Virus record (IMG/VR): IMGVR_UViG_2778260992_000008
Coordinates: 1 to 56,203 of that record
From: a virus
Lineage: Duplodnaviria; Heunggongvirae; Uroviricota; Caudoviricetes
Direction: 5' to 3' (one strand)
DNA: 56,203 nt
Shown: positions 46,031 through 56,203 of the stretch, one piece after another
How positions within the stretch are numbered: position 1 is the stretch's first letter
Layout: the number at the start of each line of letters is the position of its first letter
Program-made: the position numbers and the translations under genes
The notes under the pieces: model-generated
Databases searched by the model: none
Told to the model about the DNA's origin: nothing
Seen by the model: the letters and a program-made list of their open reading frames with translations, nothing else

Positions 46031-49000
46031 ATGGGCGGCGGTGGTGGTAAAACAAAAACACCTGAATTATTGAATGATAACTTATATCATAAACAGTTTT
46101 ATCGCGTGCTGGATATATTAAGCGAAGGACCGATTTATGGTCCCGTTAATACGACCGCGCCGTTAAACTGCGTGATGTTGAATGATACACCTATAACCGA
46201 TGAAGTGGGAAATACCAGTATTCCGGGCGTTAGTGTCGCCTGGCGGCCTGGTACGCTCGACCAATCCCCGATTAATGGTTTTAATGCCATCGAATCGACG
46301 GTAATGGTTAACGCAAAAGTAACGCATGACACCCCACTGGTTAGGACGGTATCAGACCCGAACGTGACGCGCGTCCGGTTAAATATTGGCGTGGACTCAC
46401 TAGTGGAAAGCGACAGTGAATCTAATCAGCACAATACAACGGTTATAATGGCGATCGACGTTAAGCCTTCGTCATCGTCTACCTGGTCGGCGGTTAAAGC
46501 CGTTTCTATCACTGGTAAAATTAGCGGCGAATATCTGGAATCACACATCATTGACGCGCCAAGTGAAAGCCCGTTTGATATTCGCGTCCGGCGCGTCACC
46601 GCTGACAGTGTAAGCGACTTATTGCAGAATGATACCCGCTGGAATAGCTACAGTGAGATCATCGACGATAACCTGGCTTACCCTTACACAGCCGTAGCAG
46701 GTGCGGTAATTGACCATGACCAGTACGCTGACACACCCACCCGCACTTATCATCTGCGCGGCCTGATTGTTGATGTACCGGATAACTACGACCCGGAAAC
46801 GCGTACTTATTCCGGTTTATGGCTGGGTGGCTTTAAAAAGGCGTACACCAATAACCCCGCGTGGTTGTTCCGCTACCTGATCAAAAACGACCGTTTCGGC
46901 CTTGCTCGACAGGCTGGTTATATTGATGTTGACGATGGCGCTTTATACACGCTTTCACAATATTGCGATCAGTTGGTTGATGATGGCTACGGCGGAAAAG
47001 AGCCACGCCTTACCCTTAACGCCTATATCACCGAACAAAAAAGCGCCCGTGATTTACTGGATAACATCGCCGGAATGTTCCGTGGCATCGCATTATGGGA
47101 CGGGCAGCGCCTTACCGTGATGATTGATGCGCCGCAAGACCCGATTGCAACCATCACAAACGCAAACGTCGTTGATGGCGCTTTCACCCGTTCAAGCATC
47201 GCCCGTGCCGAACGTTACAACGCGGTTGTTGTGTCCTGGACCGACCCGGAAAACGGCTGGGAGCAAACAAAAGAGTATGTATCAGATGATGAACTGATCG
47301 CCCGTGACGGTTACAACGAAACCACGCTGGAGGCGTTCGGATGCACATCACGCGGGCAAGCATACCGCGCGGGCAAATGGCTGATAGAAACAGCAAAACG
47401 CGAGCCGTCAAAATTCACGTTTAAAATGGCCCGTGACGCGATTCACTTTACGCCAGGGGATATCATCGAGATCCTCGACAATAACCGCGCGGGCGCTCGT
47501 TTAGGCGGTCGTATCGTGGCGAACAATGGCAAGGTGATAACGGTCGATAAGGTTGATTCAGAATACATTACCGCAGGTGACACCATCAGCTTACTCGATA
47601 GCGATGGCAAATTTAAAAAGCACCAGATTACCGGGGTGAATGGAAATGAGATCACCTTAGCGGCGGCCCCGGCATGGATACGCAACGGGACCGTTTTCGC
47701 TGTATCCACTGAAGCAGCAAAACCCGTTTTGTGTCGGATCACCAGTGTAGCCGAAACTGAAAATAACAGCGTGTACACCATCGAGGCCGCGCAGCACGAC
47801 CCAAATAAACAGGCGGTAGTCGATGAAGGCACAATCTTCGAAATCAGCAGCGACACGCTAAATCACTTCCGCGTGCCGAACATCGAAAATTTGAAAGTGG
47901 TAAACGTTGGATCAGAGACAGTTCAATGCCGCGCCACCTGGGAGACACAGACAACAACGCGTAGCCTGACTTTTGAGATCCGCATATACAACGCAGACGG
48001 GCGCGTGGTGGCAAGCTACGAAACGCAGAATTACCGATATGAATTTTTCGGCCTTGAATGCGGGAATTACTCGTTGGGCGTGCGCGGGCGTAATGATGCT
48101 GGCATGAAGGGTGCGGAAACGCTGGTAGATCTCATCGTTGGAGCGCCAGCCGCGCCGACTGGTGTTAATTGGGTGCCAGGTGTTTTCCAGGCAACCGTCT
48201 ACCCGATCAACAGCACCACACTAACGACCGATACCACTTACGAATTTTATTATGCCGGGGAAAACCAGATCACTGACTTCAGCCAGGTAACAACATCAGC
48301 GCAATTCACCGGGCGCGGGTATCAATGGACCTTCGGCGGGATGGCAACGGGGCACACGTATTACGTTTACGTGCGCACAAAAAACGCTTTCGGTGTATCT
48401 GACTTTATCGAAGCCAGCGGTAAACCTTCCGAAAACTTCGAAGAAATCACGGATGCCGTGCTGAATGAAGTTATGGAAGGCGAACAATTCCAGAACATGA
48501 TCAAGGACTCCATAGACGAAGTAACAGGCGGTTTAATGGGTGACGTGGAAGAACTGAAACAAACCACGGTAGACATTGACCAGGCTGTTACCGATCTGAA
48601 GGAATCAACCGCCGATCTGGAAGAACGTGTAAAAAACAATGAGGACGGAATTGGGGAGCACGAAAGCCAGATTAACGAAATCAGCGTAGAATTGACGGAG
48701 CAGGAAAACGAGCTAATGCAGACCCGCGCCAGCCTGCAAAACGCAGCCATTGCGCTTATGAATAACTCATTAGCCAACACCAGCACCCGCACCACGTTAA
48801 CGGCGCAATATAAGAGCCAGAAAGCGGAAACGAAAGCAGAAATTGAGCGCATTGATTCAGTTATTGCTACAGAGAAGGAGGCGACCGCGCAGGCGCTTAC
48901 CACGCTTGAAAGCAAGGTGAATGACGAAATCAGCGCCAACTTAACCGAAATGCAGCAGACGATCGCAACGCTGGAGGAATCGACAAGCCAATCAATCGAA

Positions 49001-50005
49001 AAACTGGAAAGCCAGGTAAACGAGGATATCCAGGCCAGCTTAACGGAGATTAACCAGACAATCACCAATCTGGAATCATCCACGGCTGAATCCATTAATA
49101 ACCTTGAAGCGAAAGTAGACGGCGATATCTCATCAGCGATCAGCAGTATGGATCAGGCATTAGCTACGCATGAACAAGCCAACGCTACACAGTTTGCCAG
49201 CCTGCAATCTCAGATTGATGAGAATGAAGCGGCAATCACTGAAACTAATCAGACGATTGCAACCAATGAGCAAGCGACCGCGCAGAAGCTGGAGCAATTG
49301 CAAGCCCAAATCGATGATGATGTGTCGGCAGCCATTACCGAAATGCAAACGGCACTTGCTACCCACGAAAAGGCCAACGCTACACAGTTTGCGGAGATTA
49401 GCGCATCACTGGAAGCAAACGAAGCAACGATCACGGAGTGGGGCGAAGCGTTTACATCTTACAAGGAATCAACCGCCACGCAGATCGAAAGCATCACGGC
49501 CTCAATCGACGGGCAATCGGTATCAATCGAAGAAAACAAAACCGCAATTGCCGGTATTGAAACAGATATGTCGGCAACGTGGAGCATTAAGATCGCTACT
49601 GACAATAACGGCATGAAGTATGCGTCCGGGATTTCGTTAGGTATGACCGGATCAGGAAGTAGCACACAATCACAATGCATTTTCCTTGTTGACCGCTTTG
49701 TGCTAATGACGGCGGCAAACGGCACATATACGACACCTTTCTATGTTACAAACGGTGCAATGTATGTGCGCGAAGCGTTTATTAAAGACGCATCAATCAC
49801 TAACGCGAAAATTGGATCTTACATCCAGTCCAATAACTATGTTTCCGGTAGCACTGGCTGGAAGCTGGATAAATCCGGTACATTCGAAAACTATGGCGCG
49901 GTGAGTGGTGAAGGCGCAATGAAATTAACAAATACCACTATTTCAGTAAAAGACGGTAACGGCGTTTTACGCGTCCAAATTGGGCGGATTACCGGATCAT
50001 GGTAG
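46031..50005 (+). CDS. host specificity / central tail fibre protein J
   Basis: 1324 aa; conserved gpJ N-terminal region; quasi-repetitive coiled-coil region ~48500-49500. Confidence 0.85.
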   Translation: MGGGGGKTKTPELLNDNLYHKQFYRVLDILSEGPIYGPVNTTAPLNCVMLNDTPITDEVGNTSIPGVSVAWRPGTLDQSPINGFNAIESTVMVNAKVTHDTPLVRTVSDPNVTRVRLNIGVDSLVESDSESNQHNTTVIMAIDVKPSSSSTWSAVKAVSITGKISGEYLESHIIDAPSESPFDIRVRRVTADSVSDLLQNDTRWNSYSEIIDDNLAYPYTAVAGAVIDHDQYADTPTRTYHLRGLIVDVPDNYDPETRTYSGLWLGGFKKAYTNNPAWLFRYLIKNDRFGLARQAGYIDVDDGALYTLSQYCDQLVDDGYGGKEPRLTLNAYITEQKSARDLLDNIAGMFRGIALWDGQRLTVMIDAPQDPIATITNANVVDGAFTRSSIARAERYNAVVVSWTDPENGWEQTKEYVSDDELIARDGYNETTLEAFGCTSRGQAYRAGKWLIETAKREPSKFTFKMARDAIHFTPGDIIEILDNNRAGARLGGRIVANNGKVITVDKVDSEYITAGDTISLLDSDGKFKKHQITGVNGNEITLAAAPAWIRNGTVFAVSTEAAKPVLCRITSVAETENNSVYTIEAAQHDPNKQAVVDEGTIFEISSDTLNHFRVPNIENLKVVNVGSETVQCRATWETQTTTRSLTFEIRIYNADGRVVASYETQNYRYEFFGLECGNYSLGVRGRNDAGMKGAETLVDLIVGAPAAPTGVNWVPGVFQATVYPINSTTLTTDTTYEFYYAGENQITDFSQVTTSAQFTGRGYQWTFGGMATGHTYYVYVRTKNAFGVSDFIEASGKPSENFEEITDAVLNEVMEGEQFQNMIKDSIDEVTGGLMGDVEELKQTTVDIDQAVTDLKESTADLEERVKNNEDGIGEHESQINEISVELTEQENELMQTRASLQNAAIALMNNSLANTSTRTTLTAQYKSQKAETKAEIERIDSVIATEKEATAQALTTLESKVNDEISANLTEMQQTIATLEESTSQSIEKLESQVNEDIQASLTEINQTITNLESSTAESINNLEAKVDGDISSAISSMDQALATHEQANATQFASLQSQIDENEAAITETNQTIATNEQATAQKLEQLQAQIDDDVSAAITEMQTALATHEKANATQFAEISASLEANEATITEWGEAFTSYKESTATQIESITASIDGQSVSIEENKTAIAGIETDMSATWSIKIATDNNGMKYASGISLGMTGSGSSTQSQCIFLVDRFVLMTAANGTYTTPFYVTNGAMYVREAFIKDASITNAKIGSYIQSNNYVSGSTGWKLDKSGTFENYGAVSGEGAMKLTNTTISVKDGNGVLRVQIGRITGSW

Positions 50006-50011
50006 AATTAA

Positions 50012-50040
50012 GGGGCCGACTTGTTCGGCCTCAGTTTTAT
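50012..50040 (+). terminator. weak hairpin terminator after J
   Basis: GGCCGA-CTTGT-TCGGCC followed by TCAGTTTTA. Confidence 0.35.
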
Positions 50041-50055
50041 TAAGGAGGTGCAATT

Positions 50056-50367
50056 ATGGCTACTTTCGGCGTAGCAACCTGGGACGCCAGCGGCAAAGCT
50101 AACAACTACGGGATCAAACCTTCAGTCGTGGTTGGTTATATTTCCCTATCCTCCGGGCAAGTATCCGGCACGTATACTTTTACAGTGCCGACCGGATGTA
50201 AATTATCCTACGGTATGACACTTGATTATGGCACAACGTCAACGACGCGCAGAAAGATCACTATTTCGGGTGGTACTGTTTCCATTTCCTCAGCAGGAAA
50301 CACGGTAGGCGCTAATATATGGCCCGCGTCACAGTGTGAAATTGTTATATTTGCGGAGGTGGCTTAA
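50056..50367 (+). CDS. hypothetical tail-associated protein (MATFG paralog 1)
   Basis: 103 aa; RBS AAGGAGGTG; begins MATFGVATWDASG. Confidence 0.45.
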   Translation: MATFGVATWDASGKANNYGIKPSVVVGYISLSSGQVSGTYTFTVPTGCKLSYGMTLDYGTTSTTRRKITISGGTVSISSAGNTVGANIWPASQCEIVIFAEVA

Positions 50368-50960
50368 TGGCAACCTTCGGAGCTTATTTGAGATTAAGTA
50401 ACGGGAATATTTTCGTTACACCGGAAGCGACGCCGCTTTGCTTATATAAACGGGTGGCATTAACATCATCGAATCAAACCGTCGCCGTGCCACCCGGAAA
50501 ACCCGTGATGGTATTTGTGAAAAGCACTACCGCCGCCGCTGTATTAGCTTATAGAAATAGTTCATCGACTTTACTGATCGGTGCTGGTTCGGGGTATGCG
50601 TATATTTTCAGTATTTTCCCGCCATCGCTGCCGAAATGGGGAATGGCTATCTGGAACGCTTCCGGGGAACTGGTGCTAACTAATGAATCAAGAATATTAA
50701 CAGACCTTGTAACCGTGGGGACAGCAGGATCAAGTGGCGGGATTTATATAGACCAGACGTTATCCGGTTCTTATGCTATTTGCCCCCAATTGTTAGGGGC
50801 GCTCGTTGGACAGGGTAGTGCCTCCATTTATGCGGCGGCTTATTACAACGGAAGCACGACCAGAATTTACGGTATCCAGGCGGGTAGCGTATATGCACCA
50901 ACTGGCTATATCAACCACGGGAACGCTATCACCGCCATTAAAACCGACGCCTATGATTAA
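50367..50960 (+). CDS. hypothetical tail-associated protein (MATFG paralog 2)
   Basis: 197 aa; ATGA overlap; begins MATFGAYL and shares WNASGE with paralog 1. Confidence 0.45.
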   Translation: MATFGAYLRLSNGNIFVTPEATPLCLYKRVALTSSNQTVAVPPGKPVMVFVKSTTAAAVLAYRNSSSTLLIGAGSGYAYIFSIFPPSLPKWGMAIWNASGELVLTNESRILTDLVTVGTAGSSGGIYIDQTLSGSYAICPQLLGALVGQGSASIYAAAYYNGSTTRIYGIQAGSVYAPTGYINHGNAITAIKTDAYD

Positions 50961-51196
50961 TTCAGTTCCGGGCAATCCGTTTTCTTGAAGTGGTCAACGC
51001 TTACCCATTGAAAATTAAACGGATACCCGGCCTTAACCATTTTATGACCGCCAACATCCGCGACACCGAAGACTGCAACCGCATATTCATTACCGCCAGT
51101 TTGATAAATTGCCGTGCATTCACGTTTAGGCATGTCAGCGCAACCAACCAGACCAGCAACCATTGCAACGATAGCGATATTTTTTAAGCCTTTCAT
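50957..51196 (-). CDS. Cor-like lipoprotein (candidate superinfection exclusion)
   Basis: Signal plus lipobox MKGLKNIAIVAMVAGLVGC; ATG 51196 with RBS GGAGGG; between J and side tail fibre, where cor sits in lambdoid phages. Confidence 0.45.
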   Translation of the reverse strand: MKGLKNIAIVAMVAGLVGCADMPKRECTAIYQTGGNEYAVAVFGVADVGGHKMVKAGYPFNFQWVSVDHFKKTDCPELN

Positions 51197-51355
51197 TGTC
51201 TTACCCTCCGTTGTTTCGTTGGTTGTAGTATCCACAAACTGTATTTTCTCAACATTGATATAAATCAACAAATACATTTTGTATAAACCAAAAATGTAAC
51301 ATAGATCACAAAATGGTAGAATTATTCCGTTAATTAACATAATGGAGTCATTGCA

Positions 51356-54300
51356 ATGATCTACACCATTGGAAATATTGCCGTATCCGGTAACACGCTG
51401 ACCGGGACGGGCACAAATTTTAAAGCACCCTTATCTATGATCCGCGTAGGGTGCACCGTTATTGTAAAAAGCGACCCTATCCAGATCTTTTCCATCACTG
51501 AAATTGTCAGTGAAACGGAATTATCTGTGACCCCGGCAGCATCACCGGATATTCCGGCGGGTACTGCTTACAGTATTTTATTGTGTGATTCGATCTCAGT
51601 TGATGGGCTGGCGCAAGACGTAGCGGAAGCATTACGGTATTTTACCGGGCAAGAGTCAGAGATCTATGCTGCCGTTGAATACTGGAAAAATTATGGTGAT
51701 GCCGCGCAGGTGGAAGCATTGTTAACCGCTATCCAGGCGGAAACAGCGCAATCAACCGCCAACGCCGCAGCCACCGCCGCAGACGTTGAAACAACCGCCG
51801 CAGCACTGAATGAAGCTGTAGCAGCAAAAGACGCAGCGGAAGCAGCAGCCGCCAACGCAGAGCAGCAGGCCGCCACCGCCACCACGCAGGCGACTACCGC
51901 TACCGAACAAGCTACCGCCGCAGCGGAAGCAGCAGCAGAAGCAAAAGATCATCGTGGCACGGCTTACATCTGGATGAATGAGGCTATCAGCCAGGCGACA
52001 ACGGCTACCGAGCAAGCGACCATCGCTACCGAAAAAGCAACGGCAGCGACCGATGCCGCCACCGCCGCACAGGAAGCACTGACGCTTACCCAGGAAGCCC
52101 GCGACACTGCCACCCAACAGGCAACCATCGCTACCGAACAGGCCACTATCGCTACTGACGCCGCCAACGCCGCCGAAACAAGCGCCGCCAACGTCGCAGC
52201 AGACGAACAAGAAATTGCAGCCAATGCAGCCGCAGCAGCAGAAGCAGCCACCGCCGCCGCATTATCAGAAGCTAATGCGAAAACTTACGCGGAGCAAGCA
52301 AAAGCACTATCAGAAGACTCATTATCCCTTATCGGCTTGGGCGCTGATCGCCGTGATTGGCCCGATTGCACGACTGATCCATCAGCCTATATTGGCTTTG
52401 TTCGTCTGGAAGAAGCCACCGCGACGGGTTTCCCGTCTATCGCTTCCGGTGAAGTCTACCTGGTAGGCTGGCTGGCACGCGGTGACGGCCTGTTCATCAA
52501 TGGTTGTTTCGTAGGTACGAATACTCGCTCGCTCTACACCTACATGTATAACAATGCCGATGGGACTTACGGCTGGACCCGTCACGCCCGGAAGGACGAA
52601 GTAAGTCGCTTTGTTCAGCGCGGCGGTGAATCGGAGGTGTACAGTGGCGATGGTCGTAAATATTTTTTCATAAACAACATGGACGGGACTTATCATTGGG
52701 GGGCTTACGATACAAGTACGGGGCAAACCGTTCCGTTACAAGTATCTTGCGGCGGTACAGGTGGGCGTAATGCCGGACAAGCCCGCACCAGCTTACAGGT
52801 GATGTACGAACAAAAAACTGACCTCGGAGATACGGATCTAAACACCCTGACTGGTGAGTATTCCGGTTTCTATCGCCAGAAAACCAACGCAAAAGCCACC
52901 ACTGAACATAATTACCCGTGCAACTATGCGGGCGCGCTTGTCGTGCTGGGGAATAGTGCTAATAGTGATTCGGGATGTACGCAAATTTATTACCCCTATA
53001 ACTATAGTGATTTGTATTATACCCGTTGGTGTAATGGTTCTGATCTTAATTGGTCCGACTGGTGCGAGCATCGCGGCTACTGGACAATCCTTAATAACAT
53101 TGGCTTAGGTGCATCACCTCGCCATTGTAATGATCTCACGGGTGATCCATTCTCTTATATTGGCTTCTTACGCCTGACTCCGGCGGGGACCACTGGCTAT
53201 CCTGACGTCGCAACAGAAGCGGGCGAGGGCGCTTTGAGTGGTTACATCTGCCGTAACGATGGTGAACCTTCATACTCCGGCTTATTTGTCGGTGCTACGA
53301 CTGGCGCGGCCTACACCTACCGCTATAGCTTAGGTGGTGGCGTTCAATGGCAAAGAATTCCGCGAGCTAATGACTTAAGCCGTTTTGTGCAAAACGACTC
53401 AACAACGCGCATGTATGGCCCGACAGGCGATCGCTTCTTTGAGATCCACACCAACGGTAATTGGGGTGTTTACAGTACCGCTGATTCCGCGTGGATACCG
53501 TTAGGTATTGCACAGGGCGGCACAGGTGCAACAGACGCAGCCACGGCCCGCACTAATTTAGGGTTAGGCACTACAAACGATGTGCAGCATCAGAATCTGA
53601 CGCTGACCCGTACAAGCGACGGGACAGATGGTTGGGTAGCTGGTGGTATGACCAAATCTAAACTTTTAGGTACTGACGGCACTGTACGCGCCGAGGGCTG
53701 GATGTATGCAGAATGCAACGCAAGTAGCCCAACGCAAATGACCTTTGCCATCCATTCAGCGACCGAAGGCTACAAATATTTGTCTTTCAATACGAAAGGC
53801 CAGATCCTGGCTGAAACGGCTATTTTCCGTTCAACCTACGTTAACCCGTTGGTTATTGAAAGCACTACCCCGACAGTCAGCTTTAACGAAACCGACCGCC
53901 CGGATGGCGCACCTTATTACAACTTTATTGCCGATGGCGGCAACTGGCGTATTCAGAAAAACGGCGACGGGTATGATGGTGAATATGTAATAAGTTATGA
54001 CTATAAACTCAACGAGATTCAAGTACCTAACTTGCTTGCTACGGCTATCCAGAAACCTTTAAACCTCGATCAGACCAAAACAAATCTGCAAATCCCTTAC
54101 ACCGGGGTGAGCCATTGGACCGACTACAACGCCCCGGAAGGCGCGGAAGCAACCAAATACTATCCGGTTATTATTTCTCAACCGTCATACTTCAACGGTG
54201 ATTTCTTTGTCGAAGTCGCTATGCGCACACGCTCAATACAGGGCGCTGAAGAACCTAACTGTAACGCCATTCACCTATGGATGCGTGATGGTGGCTGGTC

Positions 54301-56203
54301 TGATATGGGTCAAGGTTGTTTCGGTCATTATTGCGCTTACGCTTCCAACGAAGTAGCTATCCTTTGTGTGCGCGGTACTGACAAAGGCCAATATCCACAC
54401 AATGCAATCTATGTTCGCGGTGACGCTTTCCCTATTCGTCTTGCCGCCACGGTTGGCTGCACTGTAACAATACCTACAGCAGACTGGAAACCTTCAACCG
54501 CAAGCGATAGCCCGACTTATAAATGGGGTATCACTGATTCCGCCGATGGCCTTGATCTCGATACCTATGGTATCGCGGGTAACTTGCTTGATTTCACGCA
54601 TGGTAAAAGCGGTTTTTATTCTGACAAGCAATTCCGTCATGCTAATGGCGATGGCTATCTTTATAACCACATGACGGTTGGCGCTCTCAATATAACATCC
54701 ACGGAAGCGTTTAACTTCCGTGGCACGTCTAACTTTTACGGGACCGTTAATTGTGGTTATGGCTATTATTCTGTAAGCGATGATGTAACGAAATGCGCAT
54801 ACTATTCACGCCTGATTGACTCATCAGGGAACATTCTCGGACAAGGTGAATTCCGCGTAGGAGAATACGCCGCGCAAATTGTTGTACGCGATCTCACAGA
54901 TACCGCCGCGCATAAATTCTTTAACTTCAACAAAGACGGCACATTCCATGCGCCTAACGGTTGCGTTACCCACACTGGCGCGGACTGGAGCGGGCACACA
55001 TCCGATAACATAAACAAATTTAAGCCTATTGCTGGCAGCACTAACGGGCCATCAGATCCGACCGTTTTTGGTGGTTTCCATGTTAGTTTCAGCGGTAACT
55101 ATGCTACCCAATTTGCTGGGCGTTTATCCCAATTTTGGGCCAGAAGCATTGAAGCGGGAGTAGATCAAGGCTGGAAACGCTTATTGACTACAGATGACTT
55201 AAGCGCATCCACTGATTTAACAGTCAACAGCCTGACCACTACAACAGCCGTTAGATCTGGTGGTGGCGATCTGCATATTCTCGGTGATACCGCATACCGT
55301 GAAGCGATGAATTGCGGCCTTACTGGTTATGACTCCACCGGACAGAATATGAGCTGGTATCTCGGCACATATAAGAGCCAGGAATATAAAGTTTACTTCG
55401 AAGACTATTTAGGTTCCGAAGGTATCGAGCTTAACGGTGATAATGGTTCCGTTAAATTGTACACTGGCGGCCTGGCGACAGGAACACCAGCAGAGCTTAC
55501 GCTTTATGATAACCAGTGTTTATCAACTGTAAACTATACCATCAAACCCGCTTCGTCCTCATGGGATAGATATTTCACAATGGAAAATAGCGGCACAGCT
55601 TACCATAACGGCACTTATCAATTTTGGGGTAATGCTGTTTATGATGGTAGTAACATTACAGGTGATCGCTATAGTGTCTTTGAATGGAAGTTAGACACTG
55701 GTTATTTAGCCTATTTGGAACGTTCAGCCGATGGTTCTCAGAAGCTACAGGTTAACGGCGGCATACATTGCACAGCAGTTACTCAGTCCTCCGACCGTGA
55801 TTTGAAGGACAATATCGAGGTTATACCGGACGCCACCGCCGCGATCCGCAAGATGAACGGCTATACCTACACTCTGAAAGAAAACGGCCTACCTTACGCC
55901 GGGATTATCGCACAGGAAGCAATGGAGGCCATCCCGGAAGCGGTAGGATCTTTCATGTGGGAAGGTGAAGAACTGGAAGGCCCGACACAGGACGGTCGCG
56001 AACTACGCGAAACGGCACGTTACCTCAATGTTGACTATGCCGCCGTGACTGGTTTACTTGTTCAGGTGGCACGCGAAACAGATGATCGCGTTACCGCGCT
56101 GGAAGAAGAAAACGCCAGCTTACGCGCGAACATTGCTGTTATGGATGAACGCATCACAAAACTTGAAGCACTGGTCCAGCAGTTGACCGGAAGCGAAGAA
56201 TAA
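51356..56203 (+). CDS. side tail fibre protein with C-terminal intramolecular chaperone (S74-like) domain
   Basis: 1615 aa; Ala/Thr-rich repeats ~51700-52300; duplicated ~150-aa domain; C-terminal SSDRDLKDNIEVIPDATAAIRKMNGYTYTL; stop at window end. Confidence 0.75.
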   Translation: MIYTIGNIAVSGNTLTGTGTNFKAPLSMIRVGCTVIVKSDPIQIFSITEIVSETELSVTPAASPDIPAGTAYSILLCDSISVDGLAQDVAEALRYFTGQESEIYAAVEYWKNYGDAAQVEALLTAIQAETAQSTANAAATAADVETTAAALNEAVAAKDAAEAAAANAEQQAATATTQATTATEQATAAAEAAAEAKDHRGTAYIWMNEAISQATTATEQATIATEKATAATDAATAAQEALTLTQEARDTATQQATIATEQATIATDAANAAETSAANVAADEQEIAANAAAAAEAATAAALSEANAKTYAEQAKALSEDSLSLIGLGADRRDWPDCTTDPSAYIGFVRLEEATATGFPSIASGEVYLVGWLARGDGLFINGCFVGTNTRSLYTYMYNNADGTYGWTRHARKDEVSRFVQRGGESEVYSGDGRKYFFINNMDGTYHWGAYDTSTGQTVPLQVSCGGTGGRNAGQARTSLQVMYEQKTDLGDTDLNTLTGEYSGFYRQKTNAKATTEHNYPCNYAGALVVLGNSANSDSGCTQIYYPYNYSDLYYTRWCNGSDLNWSDWCEHRGYWTILNNIGLGASPRHCNDLTGDPFSYIGFLRLTPAGTTGYPDVATEAGEGALSGYICRNDGEPSYSGLFVGATTGAAYTYRYSLGGGVQWQRIPRANDLSRFVQNDSTTRMYGPTGDRFFEIHTNGNWGVYSTADSAWIPLGIAQGGTGATDAATARTNLGLGTTNDVQHQNLTLTRTSDGTDGWVAGGMTKSKLLGTDGTVRAEGWMYAECNASSPTQMTFAIHSATEGYKYLSFNTKGQILAETAIFRSTYVNPLVIESTTPTVSFNETDRPDGAPYYNFIADGGNWRIQKNGDGYDGEYVISYDYKLNEIQVPNLLATAIQKPLNLDQTKTNLQIPYTGVSHWTDYNAPEGAEATKYYPVIISQPSYFNGDFFVEVAMRTRSIQGAEEPNCNAIHLWMRDGGWSDMGQGCFGHYCAYASNEVAILCVRGTDKGQYPHNAIYVRGDAFPIRLAATVGCTVTIPTADWKPSTASDSPTYKWGITDSADGLDLDTYGIAGNLLDFTHGKSGFYSDKQFRHANGDGYLYNHMTVGALNITSTEAFNFRGTSNFYGTVNCGYGYYSVSDDVTKCAYYSRLIDSSGNILGQGEFRVGEYAAQIVVRDLTDTAAHKFFNFNKDGTFHAPNGCVTHTGADWSGHTSDNINKFKPIAGSTNGPSDPTVFGGFHVSFSGNYATQFAGRLSQFWARSIEAGVDQGWKRLLTTDDLSASTDLTVNSLTTTTAVRSGGGDLHILGDTAYREAMNCGLTGYDSTGQNMSWYLGTYKSQEYKVYFEDYLGSEGIELNGDNGSVKLYTGGLATGTPAELTLYDNQCLSTVNYTIKPASSSWDRYFTMENSGTAYHNGTYQFWGNAVYDGSNITGDRYSVFEWKLDTGYLAYLERSADGSQKLQVNGGIHCTAVTQSSDRDLKDNIEVIPDATAAIRKMNGYTYTLKENGLPYAGIIAQEAMEAIPEAVGSFMWEGEELEGPTQDGRELRETARYLNVDYAAVTGLLVQVARETDDRVTALEEENASLRANIAVMDERITKLEALVQQLTGSEE

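What the first reader, a model, noticed from the sequence alone, without database searches (positions are those of the whole stretch)
50056..50960. Two paralogous MATFG proteins downstream of J
Adjacent genes of 103 and 197 codons both start MATFG, share WNASGE-like segments and overlap by ATGA. Duplicated small proteins next to the host-specificity gene may be fibre-associated or receptor-binding accessory factors.
Basis: seen in the sequence. Interest (0 to 1): 0.35.

Follow-up and report, generated by a model that had tools for sequence, protein, structure and literature searches.

The report
FhuA-type receptor-binding cassette after J
The two small genes after the tail-tip gene J are real, distantly related to each other, and belong to a widespread, already described cassette (J tip, two small proteins, Cor lipoprotein) that lets many coliphages use the outer-membrane protein FhuA as receptor, so this is an ordinary new member.

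Summary
Both ORFs exist at the stated coordinates: 50056-50367 (103 aa) and 50367-50960 (197 aa). Both start MATFG and carry WDASGK / WNASGE. The overlap is TAATG (one shared base), not ATGA.

They match PHROG 557 and PHROG 425. They sit between the tail-tip domain of J (PF09327) and a convergent cor lipoprotein gene. The arrangement J tip, ORF1, ORF2, cor recurs in T1, HK022-like phages, Dhillonvirus, Bas05 and many Enterobacterales prophages. Every member with an experimentally determined receptor that I found uses FhuA.

Here the cassette has been swapped into a mEpimmI-type (mEp021-like) temperate phage backbone. Its characterised relatives have a longer J and use LamB or OmpA.

Paralogy is real but distant. 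ORF1 aligns with the N-terminal domain of ORF2 (hhalign 79%, 0 of 300 permutations as good). The ORF1 leader motif recurs at ORF2 residues 90-102.

Neither protein has a signal peptide or a membrane segment, so the database labels "outer membrane" and "membrane associated" are probably wrong.

Best reading: tail-tip receptor-recognition proteins. ORF2 is probably the FhuA binder and ORF1 an Ig-like adaptor, with Cor as the cognate exclusion factor. This is known biology, not yet proven biochemically.

The parts
46031..50005 (+). J-like central tail fibre / tip attachment gene (1324 aa)
   Evidence: ORF. Pfam hits FNIII-A_GpJ, Phage-tail_3, Ig_J, Ig_J_second and Phage_Tail_Tip. About 66% aa identity to mEp010 and mEp021 J over aa 1-1160, but roughly 400 aa shorter.
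49526..50002 (+). C-terminal tail-tip domain of J (aa 1166-1324). It lacks a lambda-type receptor-binding end and is the presumed docking platform for ORF1 and ORF2.
   Evidence: PF09327 Phage_Tail_Tip, E = 4e-41, aa 1166-1302. The last 145 aa match T1 gp33 (9l9p_S residues 1029-1172), E = 5e-44. DNA similarity to Drexlerviridae begins near 49785 and runs through ORF1, ORF2 and cor.
50012..50042 (+). GC-rich hairpin plus U-tract between the J stop and the ORF1 start (terminator- or attenuator-like)
   Evidence: Terminator-like site with 8 pairs, 6 of them GC. Lineages that have a gap between J and ORF1 carry a hairpin there with a different stem sequence.
50042..50048 (+). Shine-Dalgarno AAGGAGG, 7 nt before the ORF1 ATG
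   Evidence: Read from the sequence.
50056..50367 (+). ORF1, 103 aa: flexible N-terminal leader (aa 1-20) followed by an Ig-like beta-sandwich (aa 23-102). PHROG 557.
   Evidence: PHROG 557, E = 1e-28. AF2 mean pLDDT 83.8, seven strands, low confidence at aa 1-20. A profile of this family also hits Ig-like repeat proteins. No signal peptide or membrane segment.
50062..50100 (+). ORF1 leader motif, aa 3-15 (TFGVATWDASGKA); the most conserved part of the family
   Evidence: Frequencies G5 1.00, W9 0.96, D10 0.89, G13 0.98 in 102 sequences. Aligns to ORF2 90-102.
50355..50359 (+). Shine-Dalgarno GGAGG for ORF2, inside the 3' end of ORF1 (translational coupling)
   Evidence: Read from the sequence. 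The TAATG junction is conserved in 70 of 79 pairs.
50367..50960 (+). ORF2, 197 aa: two beta-rich domains. PHROG 425. Probable FhuA-binding protein.
   Evidence: PHROG 425, E = 3e-50. AF2 mean pLDDT 84.0, pTM 0.81, low confidence at aa 1-20 and 88-110. No solved structure has this fold. Fold relatives occur in many phages. No signal peptide or membrane segment.
50367..50591 (+). ORF2 N-terminal domain (aa 1-75), the ORF1-like paralogous domain
   Evidence: hhalign ORF1 1-81 against ORF2 1-75: probability 78.6%, P = 1.7e-5. 0 of 300 permutations reached the score. Strand positions match.
50634..50672 (+). Second copy of the leader motif inside ORF2 (aa 90-102, KWGMAIWNASGEL), at the start of the C-terminal domain
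   Evidence: hhalign probability 87-89%, P = 2-4e-6. 0 of 300 permutations reached the score. The PHROG 557 profile touches ORF2 aa 90-116, E = 0.063.
50957..51196 (-). cor: 79-aa lipoprotein for superinfection exclusion. It is convergent with ORF2 and the two stop codons overlap (TTAA).
   Evidence: PHROG 1119 Cor, E = 2e-23. Lipobox LVGC at aa 16-19. GGAGGG lies 8 nt upstream of the ATG. RefSeq names the homologue 'phage exclusion lipoprotein Cor'.

Best explanation
ORF1 and ORF2 are the detachable receptor-recognition end of the central tail fibre of a temperate siphophage. The J protein here ends in a tail-tip domain without its own receptor-binding domain.

**Proposed mechanism**
- ORF1 and ORF2 are made from the same late transcript as J. 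Their expression is probably damped by the hairpin after J. ORF2 is translationally coupled to ORF1 through the TAATG overlap.
- Both dock non-covalently onto the trimeric J tip through their flexible N-terminal leader segments.
- ORF2, the two-domain beta protein, binds the extracellular face of the FhuA ferrichrome transporter and triggers infection.
- ORF1, an Ig-like domain paralogous to the first domain of ORF2, acts as an adaptor or stabiliser at the junction between J and ORF2.
- The convergent cor gene encodes the cognate lipoprotein. It blocks FhuA in the lysogen or infected cell, preventing superinfection and loss of progeny on cell debris.

**Shown here**
- Gene structure.
- Family membership.
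- Linkage with the J tip and cor.
- Absence of export signals.
- Predicted folds.
- Distant paralogy.
- The cassette is a horizontally acquired module in a mEpimmI-type backbone.

**Inferred**
- Presence of the proteins in the virion.
- Which protein binds FhuA.
- Docking through the leader segments.
- The role of the hairpin.
For: **Family membership**
- PHROG 557, 425 and 1119.

**Linkage across 82 related loci**
- ORF1 present in 79.
- J tip upstream in 78.
- cor within 300 nt downstream in 71 of the 80 loci that have room for it.
- TAATG junction in 70 of 79 pairs.
- cor changes strand between lineages (12 minus, 59 plus), whereas ORF1 and ORF2 always follow J on its strand.

**Modular transfer**
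- The backbone is about 81% nt identical to mEp010, mEp021 and relatives. Those phages have a 1707-1727-aa J and no ORF1 or ORF2.
- The last ~70 codons of J plus ORF1, ORF2 and cor match Drexlerviridae such as Bas05 at 64-70% nt.

**Receptor**
- Homologues are present in T1, HK75, HK225, HK633, mEp043 and Teewinot, and JLBYU41 shares the cassette DNA.
- Bas05 depends on fhuA in RB-TnSeq, and its locus-encoded RBP models with FhuA at ipTM 0.88.
- The published association of this cassette with FhuA includes T1, HK022, N15, ES18 and phi80 (PMC13164509, citing Wietzorrek 2006).
- It is treated as a receptor-specificity locus in PMC8594841 and in the 2026 preprint.

**Soluble, non-exported proteins**
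- Maximum Kyte-Doolittle hydropathy over 19 residues is 1.0 and 1.2, and there is no lipobox. Cor has one.

**Folds**
- ORF1 is an Ig-like sandwich.
- The leaders of both proteins are low-confidence in monomer models, as expected for segments that order on a partner.

**Published multimer modelling of homologues (PMC12309495)**
- The 23-kDa protein is placed on all three chains of the spike tip and on FhuA.
Against: - I found no experimental detection of either protein in virions. The T1 cryo-EM map did not resolve the C-terminal 350 residues of gp33 or anything attached to it (PMC11945409).
- No solved structure exists for either family.
- All assignments of an FhuA-binding role rest on co-occurrence and AlphaFold models.
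- A terminator-like hairpin sits between J and ORF1. This could mean the pair is not simply co-expressed with J.
- One paper proposes a role in superinfection exclusion instead (PMC13164509).
- I could not run multimer predictions here.
Confidence: 0.7

Rival explanations
1. ORF1 and ORF2 are membrane or envelope proteins that work with Cor in superinfection exclusion. [quoted passage not shown]
For: - PHROG annotations.
- Tight linkage with cor in 71 of 80 loci.
- Proposal in PMC13164509.
Against: - Neither protein has a signal peptide, lipobox or hydrophobic segment, while Cor has all the marks of a lipoprotein.
- They are on the J strand and are translationally coupled to each other (in many lineages ORF1 also abuts or overlaps the J stop), whereas cor flips orientation between lineages.
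- Here cor is convergent, so it cannot share their transcript.
- They co-transfer with the J tip.
- Published membrane-affinity estimates for homologues are low (PMC12309495).
Confidence: 0.07
2. They are assembly chaperones for the tip of the J trimer or for the neighbouring side fibre. They are needed for folding but are absent from the finished virion, like lambda Tfa or T4 gp57A-type factors.
For: - Position between the central-fibre and side-fibre genes.
- No virion detection found.
- The chaperone idea is mentioned in PMC12309495.
Against: - The cassette tracks the receptor (FhuA) and the cognate exclusion gene, not the type of side fibre.
- A J that ends in PF09327 without a receptor-binding domain needs a separate binder.
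- The downstream fibre is annotated in relatives as an S74 family peptidase, i.e. with its own intramolecular chaperone.
- Published models place the ORF2 homologue on FhuA with high confidence.
Confidence: 0.13
3. ORF1, as a trimer capping J, is the FhuA binder, and ORF2 is the accessory.
For: - ORF1 is Ig-like, and the receptor-binding end of lambda J is described as Ig-like (PMC12309495).
- ORF1 directly follows J, and in many lineages its start overlaps the J stop.
- One database entry fuses the J C-terminus to ORF1 (P0074).
Against: - Published multimer models give the ORF1 homologue the worst scores with FhuA and the ORF2 homologue the best.
- A Tempevirinae phage species that uses BtuB keeps an ORF2-like protein plus a Cor-like lipoprotein but lacks ORF1.
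- The gene numbering in the 2026 preprint tables is most simply read as pointing to the second gene after J. This is my inference.
Confidence: 0.1

Closest known systems
FhuA-type 'bona fide RBP locus' downstream of gpJ in Drexlerviridae, Dhillonvirus and HK022-like phages (T1 ORF32, ORF31 and cor; Bas05 bas05_0023, 0024 and 0025)
   Same: - Same three gene families in the same order after a J that ends in the same tip domain.
- ORF2 is 68% aa identical to SLUR29, about 52% to Henu8 and aaroes, and 42% to T1.
- ORF1 is 61% identical to morffagbaw.
- Same TAATG coupling.
   Different: - The host genome is a temperate mEpimmI-type phage, not a T1-like or lambdoid phage.
- This allele is rare: 4 of 5426 complete E. 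coli genomes at 80% coverage or more.
- ORF2 is shorter (197 aa against 212-225) because of deletions in the N-terminal domain and near aa 150-160.
Dhillonvirus JLBYU60 YP_010740311.1 (Ig-like) and YP_010740312.1 ('hand-like', 23 kDa), PMC12309495
   Same: - Same pair: a small beta-sandwich protein and a protein of about 200 aa with a beta fold that has no PDB relative.
- Modelled at the tip of the spike and on FhuA.
   Different: The sections of that paper I read treat the two proteins as unrelated folds. Here ORF1 is shown to be homologous to the first domain of ORF2, and the leader motif is shown to recur.
Phage T5 pb5 (FhuA-binding protein) with Llp (exclusion lipoprotein)
   Same: Same logic: a separate protein at the end of a trimeric central fibre binds FhuA, and an adjacent small lipoprotein blocks FhuA from the periplasmic side (PMC9586334; Cor and Llp compared).
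   Different: - No sequence or fold match to pb5.
- Two proteins here instead of one.
- Different fibre protein (pb4 against J).
Oekolampad (Bas18) RBP and Rtp45, the LptD-specific allele of the same locus
   Same: Same genomic position after gpJ and the same pairing of an RBP with an exclusion lipoprotein. This allele has been confirmed experimentally by cryo-EM (PMC12685063).
   Different: - The protein family is described as unrelated.
- The receptor is LptDE.
- A single RBP gene.
Lambda gpJ C-terminal receptor-binding domain
   Same: Same function at the same place on the virion. The N-terminal two thirds of J are homologous (PDB 8iyk hit).
   Different: In lambda the binding domain is part of J. 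Here J ends in PF09327 and the binding function is encoded by separate genes.

Membership tests
PHROG 557 (ORF1) and PHROG 425 (ORF2) | Full-length match to the family profile | tested here: met
   ORF1 aa 3-101 against profile positions 2-99 of 100, E = 1e-28. ORF2 aa 1-197 against 1-224 of 224, E = 3e-50.
FhuA-type RBP cassette downstream of gpJ | Located immediately after a gpJ homologue on the same strand | tested here: met
   The J stop is at 50005 and the ORF1 start at 50056. The same holds in 78 of 82 related loci.
FhuA-type RBP cassette downstream of gpJ | J ends in the conserved tip domain (...GEGAMKLTNTTISV..LRVQIGR.TG.W) rather than a built-in receptor-binding domain | tested here: met
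   PF09327, E = 4e-41. The T1 gp33 C-terminus aligns to the last residue. The Bas05 J C-terminus is nearly identical.
FhuA-type RBP cassette downstream of gpJ | Adjacent cognate Cor lipoprotein gene | tested here: met
   PHROG 1119, E = 2e-23. Lipobox present. Linked in 71 of 80 loci.
FhuA-type RBP cassette downstream of gpJ | The phage needs FhuA for infection | not testable with these tools
   Inferred from relatives: Bas05 RB-TnSeq; T1, HK022, N15, ES18 and phi80; the JLBYU phages.
FhuA-type RBP cassette downstream of gpJ | Proteins are part of the virion tip and bind FhuA | not testable with these tools
   I found no proteomic or structural evidence for any member. Only AlphaFold models have been published.
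Outer-membrane or membrane-associated proteins (as the PHROG labels say; Lom-like) | Signal peptide, lipobox, transmembrane helix or beta-barrel | tested here: not met
   No basic or hydrophobic N-terminus, no lipobox, and maximum 19-residue hydropathy of 1.0 and 1.2. The predicted folds are small beta-rich domains: a beta-sandwich for ORF1.
Bacterial Ig-like domain superfamily (ORF1) | Seven-strand beta-sandwich with sequence similarity to Ig-like repeat families | tested here: met
   AF2 predicts seven strands at aa 23-102. The ORF1 profile hits multi-repeat proteins whose repeats are Bact_surface_Ig-like, Big_9, Big_2 or PKD.
Split-off lambda gpJ C-terminal Ig-like receptor-binding domain (claim in PMC12309495) | [quoted passage not shown] | not tested
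The sequence search of ORF1 against the PDB found nothing.
T5 pb5-type RBP | Sequence or fold similarity to pb5 | tested here: not met
   No PDB sequence hit. No Foldseek hit at E <= 0.001 among 350,542 chains.
   Deep-profile hhalign gives 78.6% over 74 columns and 87-89% over 13 columns. 0 of 300 column permutations reached either score. It is weak by BLASTP and not detected by HMMER, so the relationship is distant.

The most novel reading that the evidence does not exclude
The two genes together carry three 'leader plus beta-domain' units: ORF1, the ORF2 N-domain and the ORF2 C-domain. Each unit begins with an aromatic-Gly...Gly leader that is disordered in monomer models. The three leaders may each engage one subunit of the trimeric J tip. 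In that case a 1:1 ORF1-ORF2 heterodimer would form a pseudo-threefold cap. This would solve the mismatch between a threefold fibre and a single, asymmetric FhuA-binding surface. It would be a division of labour not described for T5 pb5 or lambda J.
Probability: 0.15. Interest if true: 0.55.

Novelty: new member of a known kind. Interest (0 to 1): 0.3.

Why it matters
**Practical value**
- It predicts that this mEpimmI-type prophage uses FhuA. Its characterised relatives use LamB or OmpA.
- It is one more clear case of the receptor module (J tip, binder genes and exclusion gene) moving as a unit between unrelated phage groups.

**What may be new**
- The homology between ORF1 and the first domain of ORF2, and the repeated leader motif, are not described in the sections I read of the paper that models these two proteins.
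- This gives a concrete hypothesis for how the proteins attach to J.

**Limit**
- The biology of the cassette as a whole is already in the literature.

Tried and rejected
**Searches that found nothing**
- Pfam gave no hit for ORF1, ORF2 or Cor.
- PDB sequence searches for ORF1 and ORF2 were empty.
- Foldseek of the ORF2 model against the PDB gave only noise.
- Foldseek of the ORF1 model against viral predicted structures gave only weak hits, with none at E <= 0.001. These included the 105-aa Littlefixvirus counterpart and some tail-fibre tips. This is too weak to settle fold class or paralogy.

**Paralogy tests that were too shallow**
- The first hhalign runs with shallow alignments showed only a 12-15 residue match.
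- The signal across the whole domain appeared only after adding diverse prophage sequences.
- The HMMER profile of ORF1 over 1.84 billion representatives did not reach the ORF2 family.
- Similarity between the two halves of ORF2 stayed non-significant (P = 0.01). I therefore do not claim three proven copies of the motif.

**Ideas considered and dropped**
- Recent gene conversion as the cause of the MATFG identity: the codons differ at three synonymous sites.
- An internal promoter for the pair: the single promoter-like site (50179-50206) is fewer than expected by chance.

**Literature gaps**
- I looked for virion proteomics of T1-like phages. SH6 lacks the cassette.
- The T1 proteome paper and Wietzorrek 2006 are not in the library.
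- The preprint tables did not say which gene was modelled with FhuA. The tag numbering only suggests the second gene.
Full report
**1. The observation**

Both start MATFG. ORF1 carries WDASGK at residues 9-14 and ORF2 carries WNASGE at residues 96-101.

The junction reads GCT-TAA-TGG, so the stop TAA (50365-50367) and the start ATG (50367-50369) share one base. It is a TAATG overlap, not ATGA.

Each ORF has a good ribosome-binding site: AAGGAGG 7 nt before ORF1, and GGAGG 7 nt before ORF2 inside the end of ORF1.

The five identical N-terminal residues are encoded with three synonymous differences. They do not reflect a recent DNA duplication.

**2. Surroundings**

- Upstream is a 1324-aa J homologue (46031..50005). 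It has the usual lambda-J N-terminal domains and ends in PF09327 Phage_Tail_Tip at aa 1166-1302.
- Its last 145 residues align end to end with the C-terminus of phage T1 gp33 (PDB 9l9p chain S, E = 5e-44).
- Between the J stop and ORF1 there is a GC-rich hairpin followed by a U-tract (50012-50042).
- Downstream, on the opposite strand with overlapping stop codons, is a 79-aa lipoprotein (50957..51196, lipobox LVGC). It matches PHROG 1119, Cor superinfection exclusion protein.
- A very long side-fibre gene starts at 51356.

**3. Where the window comes from**

Positions 30000-51600 are about 81% nt identical to the mEp010, mEp013, mEp021, mEp044, mEp515 and mEp554 group and to MagusPhagus. This is the temperate 'mEpimmI' group described in PMC11893012.

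Those phages have a J of 1707-1727 aa, followed directly by a lipoprotein gene on the other strand. They have no ORF1 or ORF2. They use LamB or OmpA.

In contrast, the last ~70 codons of J plus ORF1, ORF2 and cor are 64-70% nt identical to T1-like Drexlerviridae such as PeterMerian (Bas05) and SLUR29.

The cassette is therefore a horizontally acquired module in a mEpimmI backbone. This allele is rare: it occurs in 4 of 5426 complete E. coli genomes at 80% coverage or more. There RefSeq calls the two genes 'hypothetical protein' and the third 'phage exclusion lipoprotein Cor'.

**4. The family**

- ORF1 is PHROG 557 ('outer membrane protein', E = 1e-28). ORF2 is PHROG 425 ('membrane associated protein', E = 3e-50). 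Neither has a Pfam family.
- ORF2 relatives occur in 351 phage records. These include T1, HK75, HK225, HK633, mEp043, Dhillonvirus (Teewinot, Gluttony) and Klebsiella T1-like phages.
- Relatives also occur in 290 IMG/VR stretches and in prophages of at least 15 Enterobacterales genera.
- In 82 loci analysed, ORF1 is adjacent in 79 and the J-tip motif is upstream in 78. cor lies within 300 nt downstream in 71 of the 80 loci that have room for it.
- The TAATG junction is present in 70 of 79 pairs.
- cor is on the minus strand in 12 loci and on the plus strand in 59. ORF1 and ORF2 never leave the J strand.

**5. Are they paralogues?**

| Test | Result |
|---|---|
| BLASTP, ORF1 against ORF2 | 14 residues aligned (ORF1 1-14 against ORF2 88-101), E = 0.016 |
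| HMMER profile of ORF1 over 1.84 billion representatives | about 65 ORF1-like small proteins and some long Ig-repeat proteins, no ORF2-like protein |
| hhalign, 122 ORF1 and 99 ORF2 sequences, ORF1 1-81 against ORF2 1-75 | 74 columns, probability 78.6%, P = 1.7e-5 |
| hhalign, same alignments, ORF1 3-15 against ORF2 90-102 | probability 87-89%, P = 2-4e-6 |
| 300 column permutations of the ORF1 alignment | maxima 17.2 and 19.6, against observed scores of 31.3 and 37.1 |
| hhalign, the two halves of ORF2 against each other | not significant, P = 0.01 |

The AF2 models agree with the first hhalign result. ORF1 strands lie at 23-31, 38-41, 48-56, 65-71 and 74-81. Strands in the ORF2 N-domain lie at 25-31, 37-40, 47-53, 61-65, 68-71 and 76-82.

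I conclude that ORF1 is a distant paralogue of the first domain of ORF2, and that the conserved leader of ORF1 recurs at the start of the second domain of ORF2.

**6. Predicted structures**

- ORF1: mean pLDDT 83.8, a seven-strand sandwich at aa 23-102, with residues 1-20 at low confidence.
- The ORF1 profile hits proteins built of Bact_surface_Ig-like, Big_9, Big_2 or PKD repeats, so ORF1 is an Ig-like domain.
- ORF2: mean pLDDT 84.0, pTM 0.81, two beta-rich domains, with residues 1-20 and 88-110 at low confidence.
- Nothing in the PDB resembles ORF2. Predicted structures from many phages of Pectobacterium, Proteus, Pseudomonas, Xanthomonas, Acinetobacter and Providencia do resemble it, with E down to 4e-7.
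- Two of those proteins (A0A2S1GLF7 and A0A7S5W983) are also hit by the ORF1 model. This is weak structural support for the shared domain.
- The low-confidence segments coincide with the shared leader motif. That is the behaviour expected of segments that fold on a partner.

**7. What the literature says**

- The cassette 'two small genes plus cor' after the tail fibre gene was noted in T1, HK022, N15, ES18 and phi80, all FhuA-dependent, and is absent from relatives that do not use FhuA (Wietzorrek 2006 as summarised in PMC13164509).
- Maffei et al. (PMC8594841) called these 'bona fide RBP loci' and matched alleles to receptors.
- A 2026 preprint (10.64898/2026.04.02.716166) confirmed by genome-wide screens that the locus tracks the receptor. 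It found that the J C-terminal tip co-varies with it, and it reported confident AlphaFold3 models of the locus-encoded RBP with FhuA: Bas05 has fhuA as top hit and ipTM 0.88.
- Matusiak et al. (PMC12309495) modelled the Dhillonvirus homologues. The small protein is Ig-like. The 23-kDa protein has a novel 'hand-like' fold, contacts all three chains of the spike tip and gives the best model with FhuA.
- The KanT1 paper instead suggests a role in exclusion, based on the membrane labels.
- The T1 cryo-EM structure did not resolve gp33 residues 821-1172 or anything bound there.
- I found no proteomic or biochemical proof for any member.

**8. Mechanism and rivals**

The best reading is a detachable receptor-recognition tip. 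ORF2 is the FhuA binder, ORF1 is an Ig-like adaptor, and Cor is the cognate exclusion lipoprotein.

- The exclusion or membrane reading is disfavoured. Neither protein has any export or membrane signal while Cor does. The proteins follow J rather than cor in strand and coupling. Here cor is convergent.
- A pure chaperone role cannot be excluded without proteomics. It does not explain why the cassette tracks the receptor and the exclusion gene.
- Which of the two proteins touches FhuA rests only on published models, and on the observation that a BtuB-using phage species keeps an ORF2-like protein but lacks ORF1.

**9. Novelty**

This is a new, rare allele of a known cassette in a phage group where it had not been characterised, so it is a new member of a known kind.

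The homology between ORF1 and the ORF2 N-domain, and the repeated leader motif, are not described in the sections I read of the paper that models these proteins. Together they suggest a testable docking model: three leader-plus-domain units for three J subunits. I rate that model as possible but unproven.

Noticed in passing
window 50012-50042; also L001, L005-L011, L034, L043, L064, L078 between the J stop and the ORF1 start: Wherever there is a gap between J and ORF1, it holds a GC-rich hairpin followed by a U-rich tract. The stem sequences differ between lineages (GGGGCCGA/TCGGCCTC, GCGGGGC/GCCCCGC, GGGGC/GCCCC, GGCGCC/GGCGCC). In HK022-like lineages the genes overlap and there is no hairpin. 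It could be an attenuator that sets the ratio of J to the tip proteins.
   Followed up: partly
window 50957-50960: ORF2 and cor are convergent and their stop codons overlap in the palindrome TTAA. Among relatives cor is sometimes on the same strand as ORF2 (59 loci) and sometimes on the opposite strand (12 loci).
   Followed up: yes
database proteins P0074 and P0075: - P0074 (139 aa) is the C-terminus of a J protein fused in frame to the start of an ORF1 homologue (...VGRLTGCSD-MAYGIQTWDASG...).
- P0075 (124 aa) joins an ORF1 N-terminus to a sequence resembling the N-terminus of the side fibre encoded at 51356.
- These may be natural fusions or deletions, or assembly errors. A real J-ORF1 fusion would support physical association.
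   Followed up: no
window 46031-50005 (J aa ~800-1160): The middle of J is a long Ala/Glu/Thr/Gln-rich repeat region. It aligns to two different registers of mEp010 and mEp021 J (aa 802-1283 against 1032-1553). The window J is about 400 aa shorter than those, so fibre length differs within the phage group.
   Followed up: partly
window 51356-56203: The side tail fibre ORF runs off the end of the window (at least 1615 aa). It has an alanine-rich repeat region near the N-terminus and two similar internal modules (GLGADRRDWPDCTTDPSAYIGFVRLEE... and GLGASPRHCNDLTGDPFSYIGFLRLTP...). Relatives are annotated as 'pyocin knob domain-containing S74 family peptidase'.
   Followed up: no
window 51197-51355: An AT-rich 160-bp divergent region lies between cor (minus strand) and the side-fibre gene (plus strand). 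The simple scan found no consensus promoter here, yet cor needs its own promoter if it is expressed in the lysogen.
   Followed up: partly
BFVD hits of the ORF2 model: The ORF2 fold occurs in phages of Pectobacterium, Proteus, Xanthomonas (phiL7 p23), Pseudomonas, Acinetobacter and Providencia at 10-19% identity. In at least one virus (Siphoviridae sp. cthSp75) an ORF1-like and an ORF2-like protein are both present. The two-protein tip may therefore be much older and broader than the FhuA-specific enterobacterial family.
   Followed up: no
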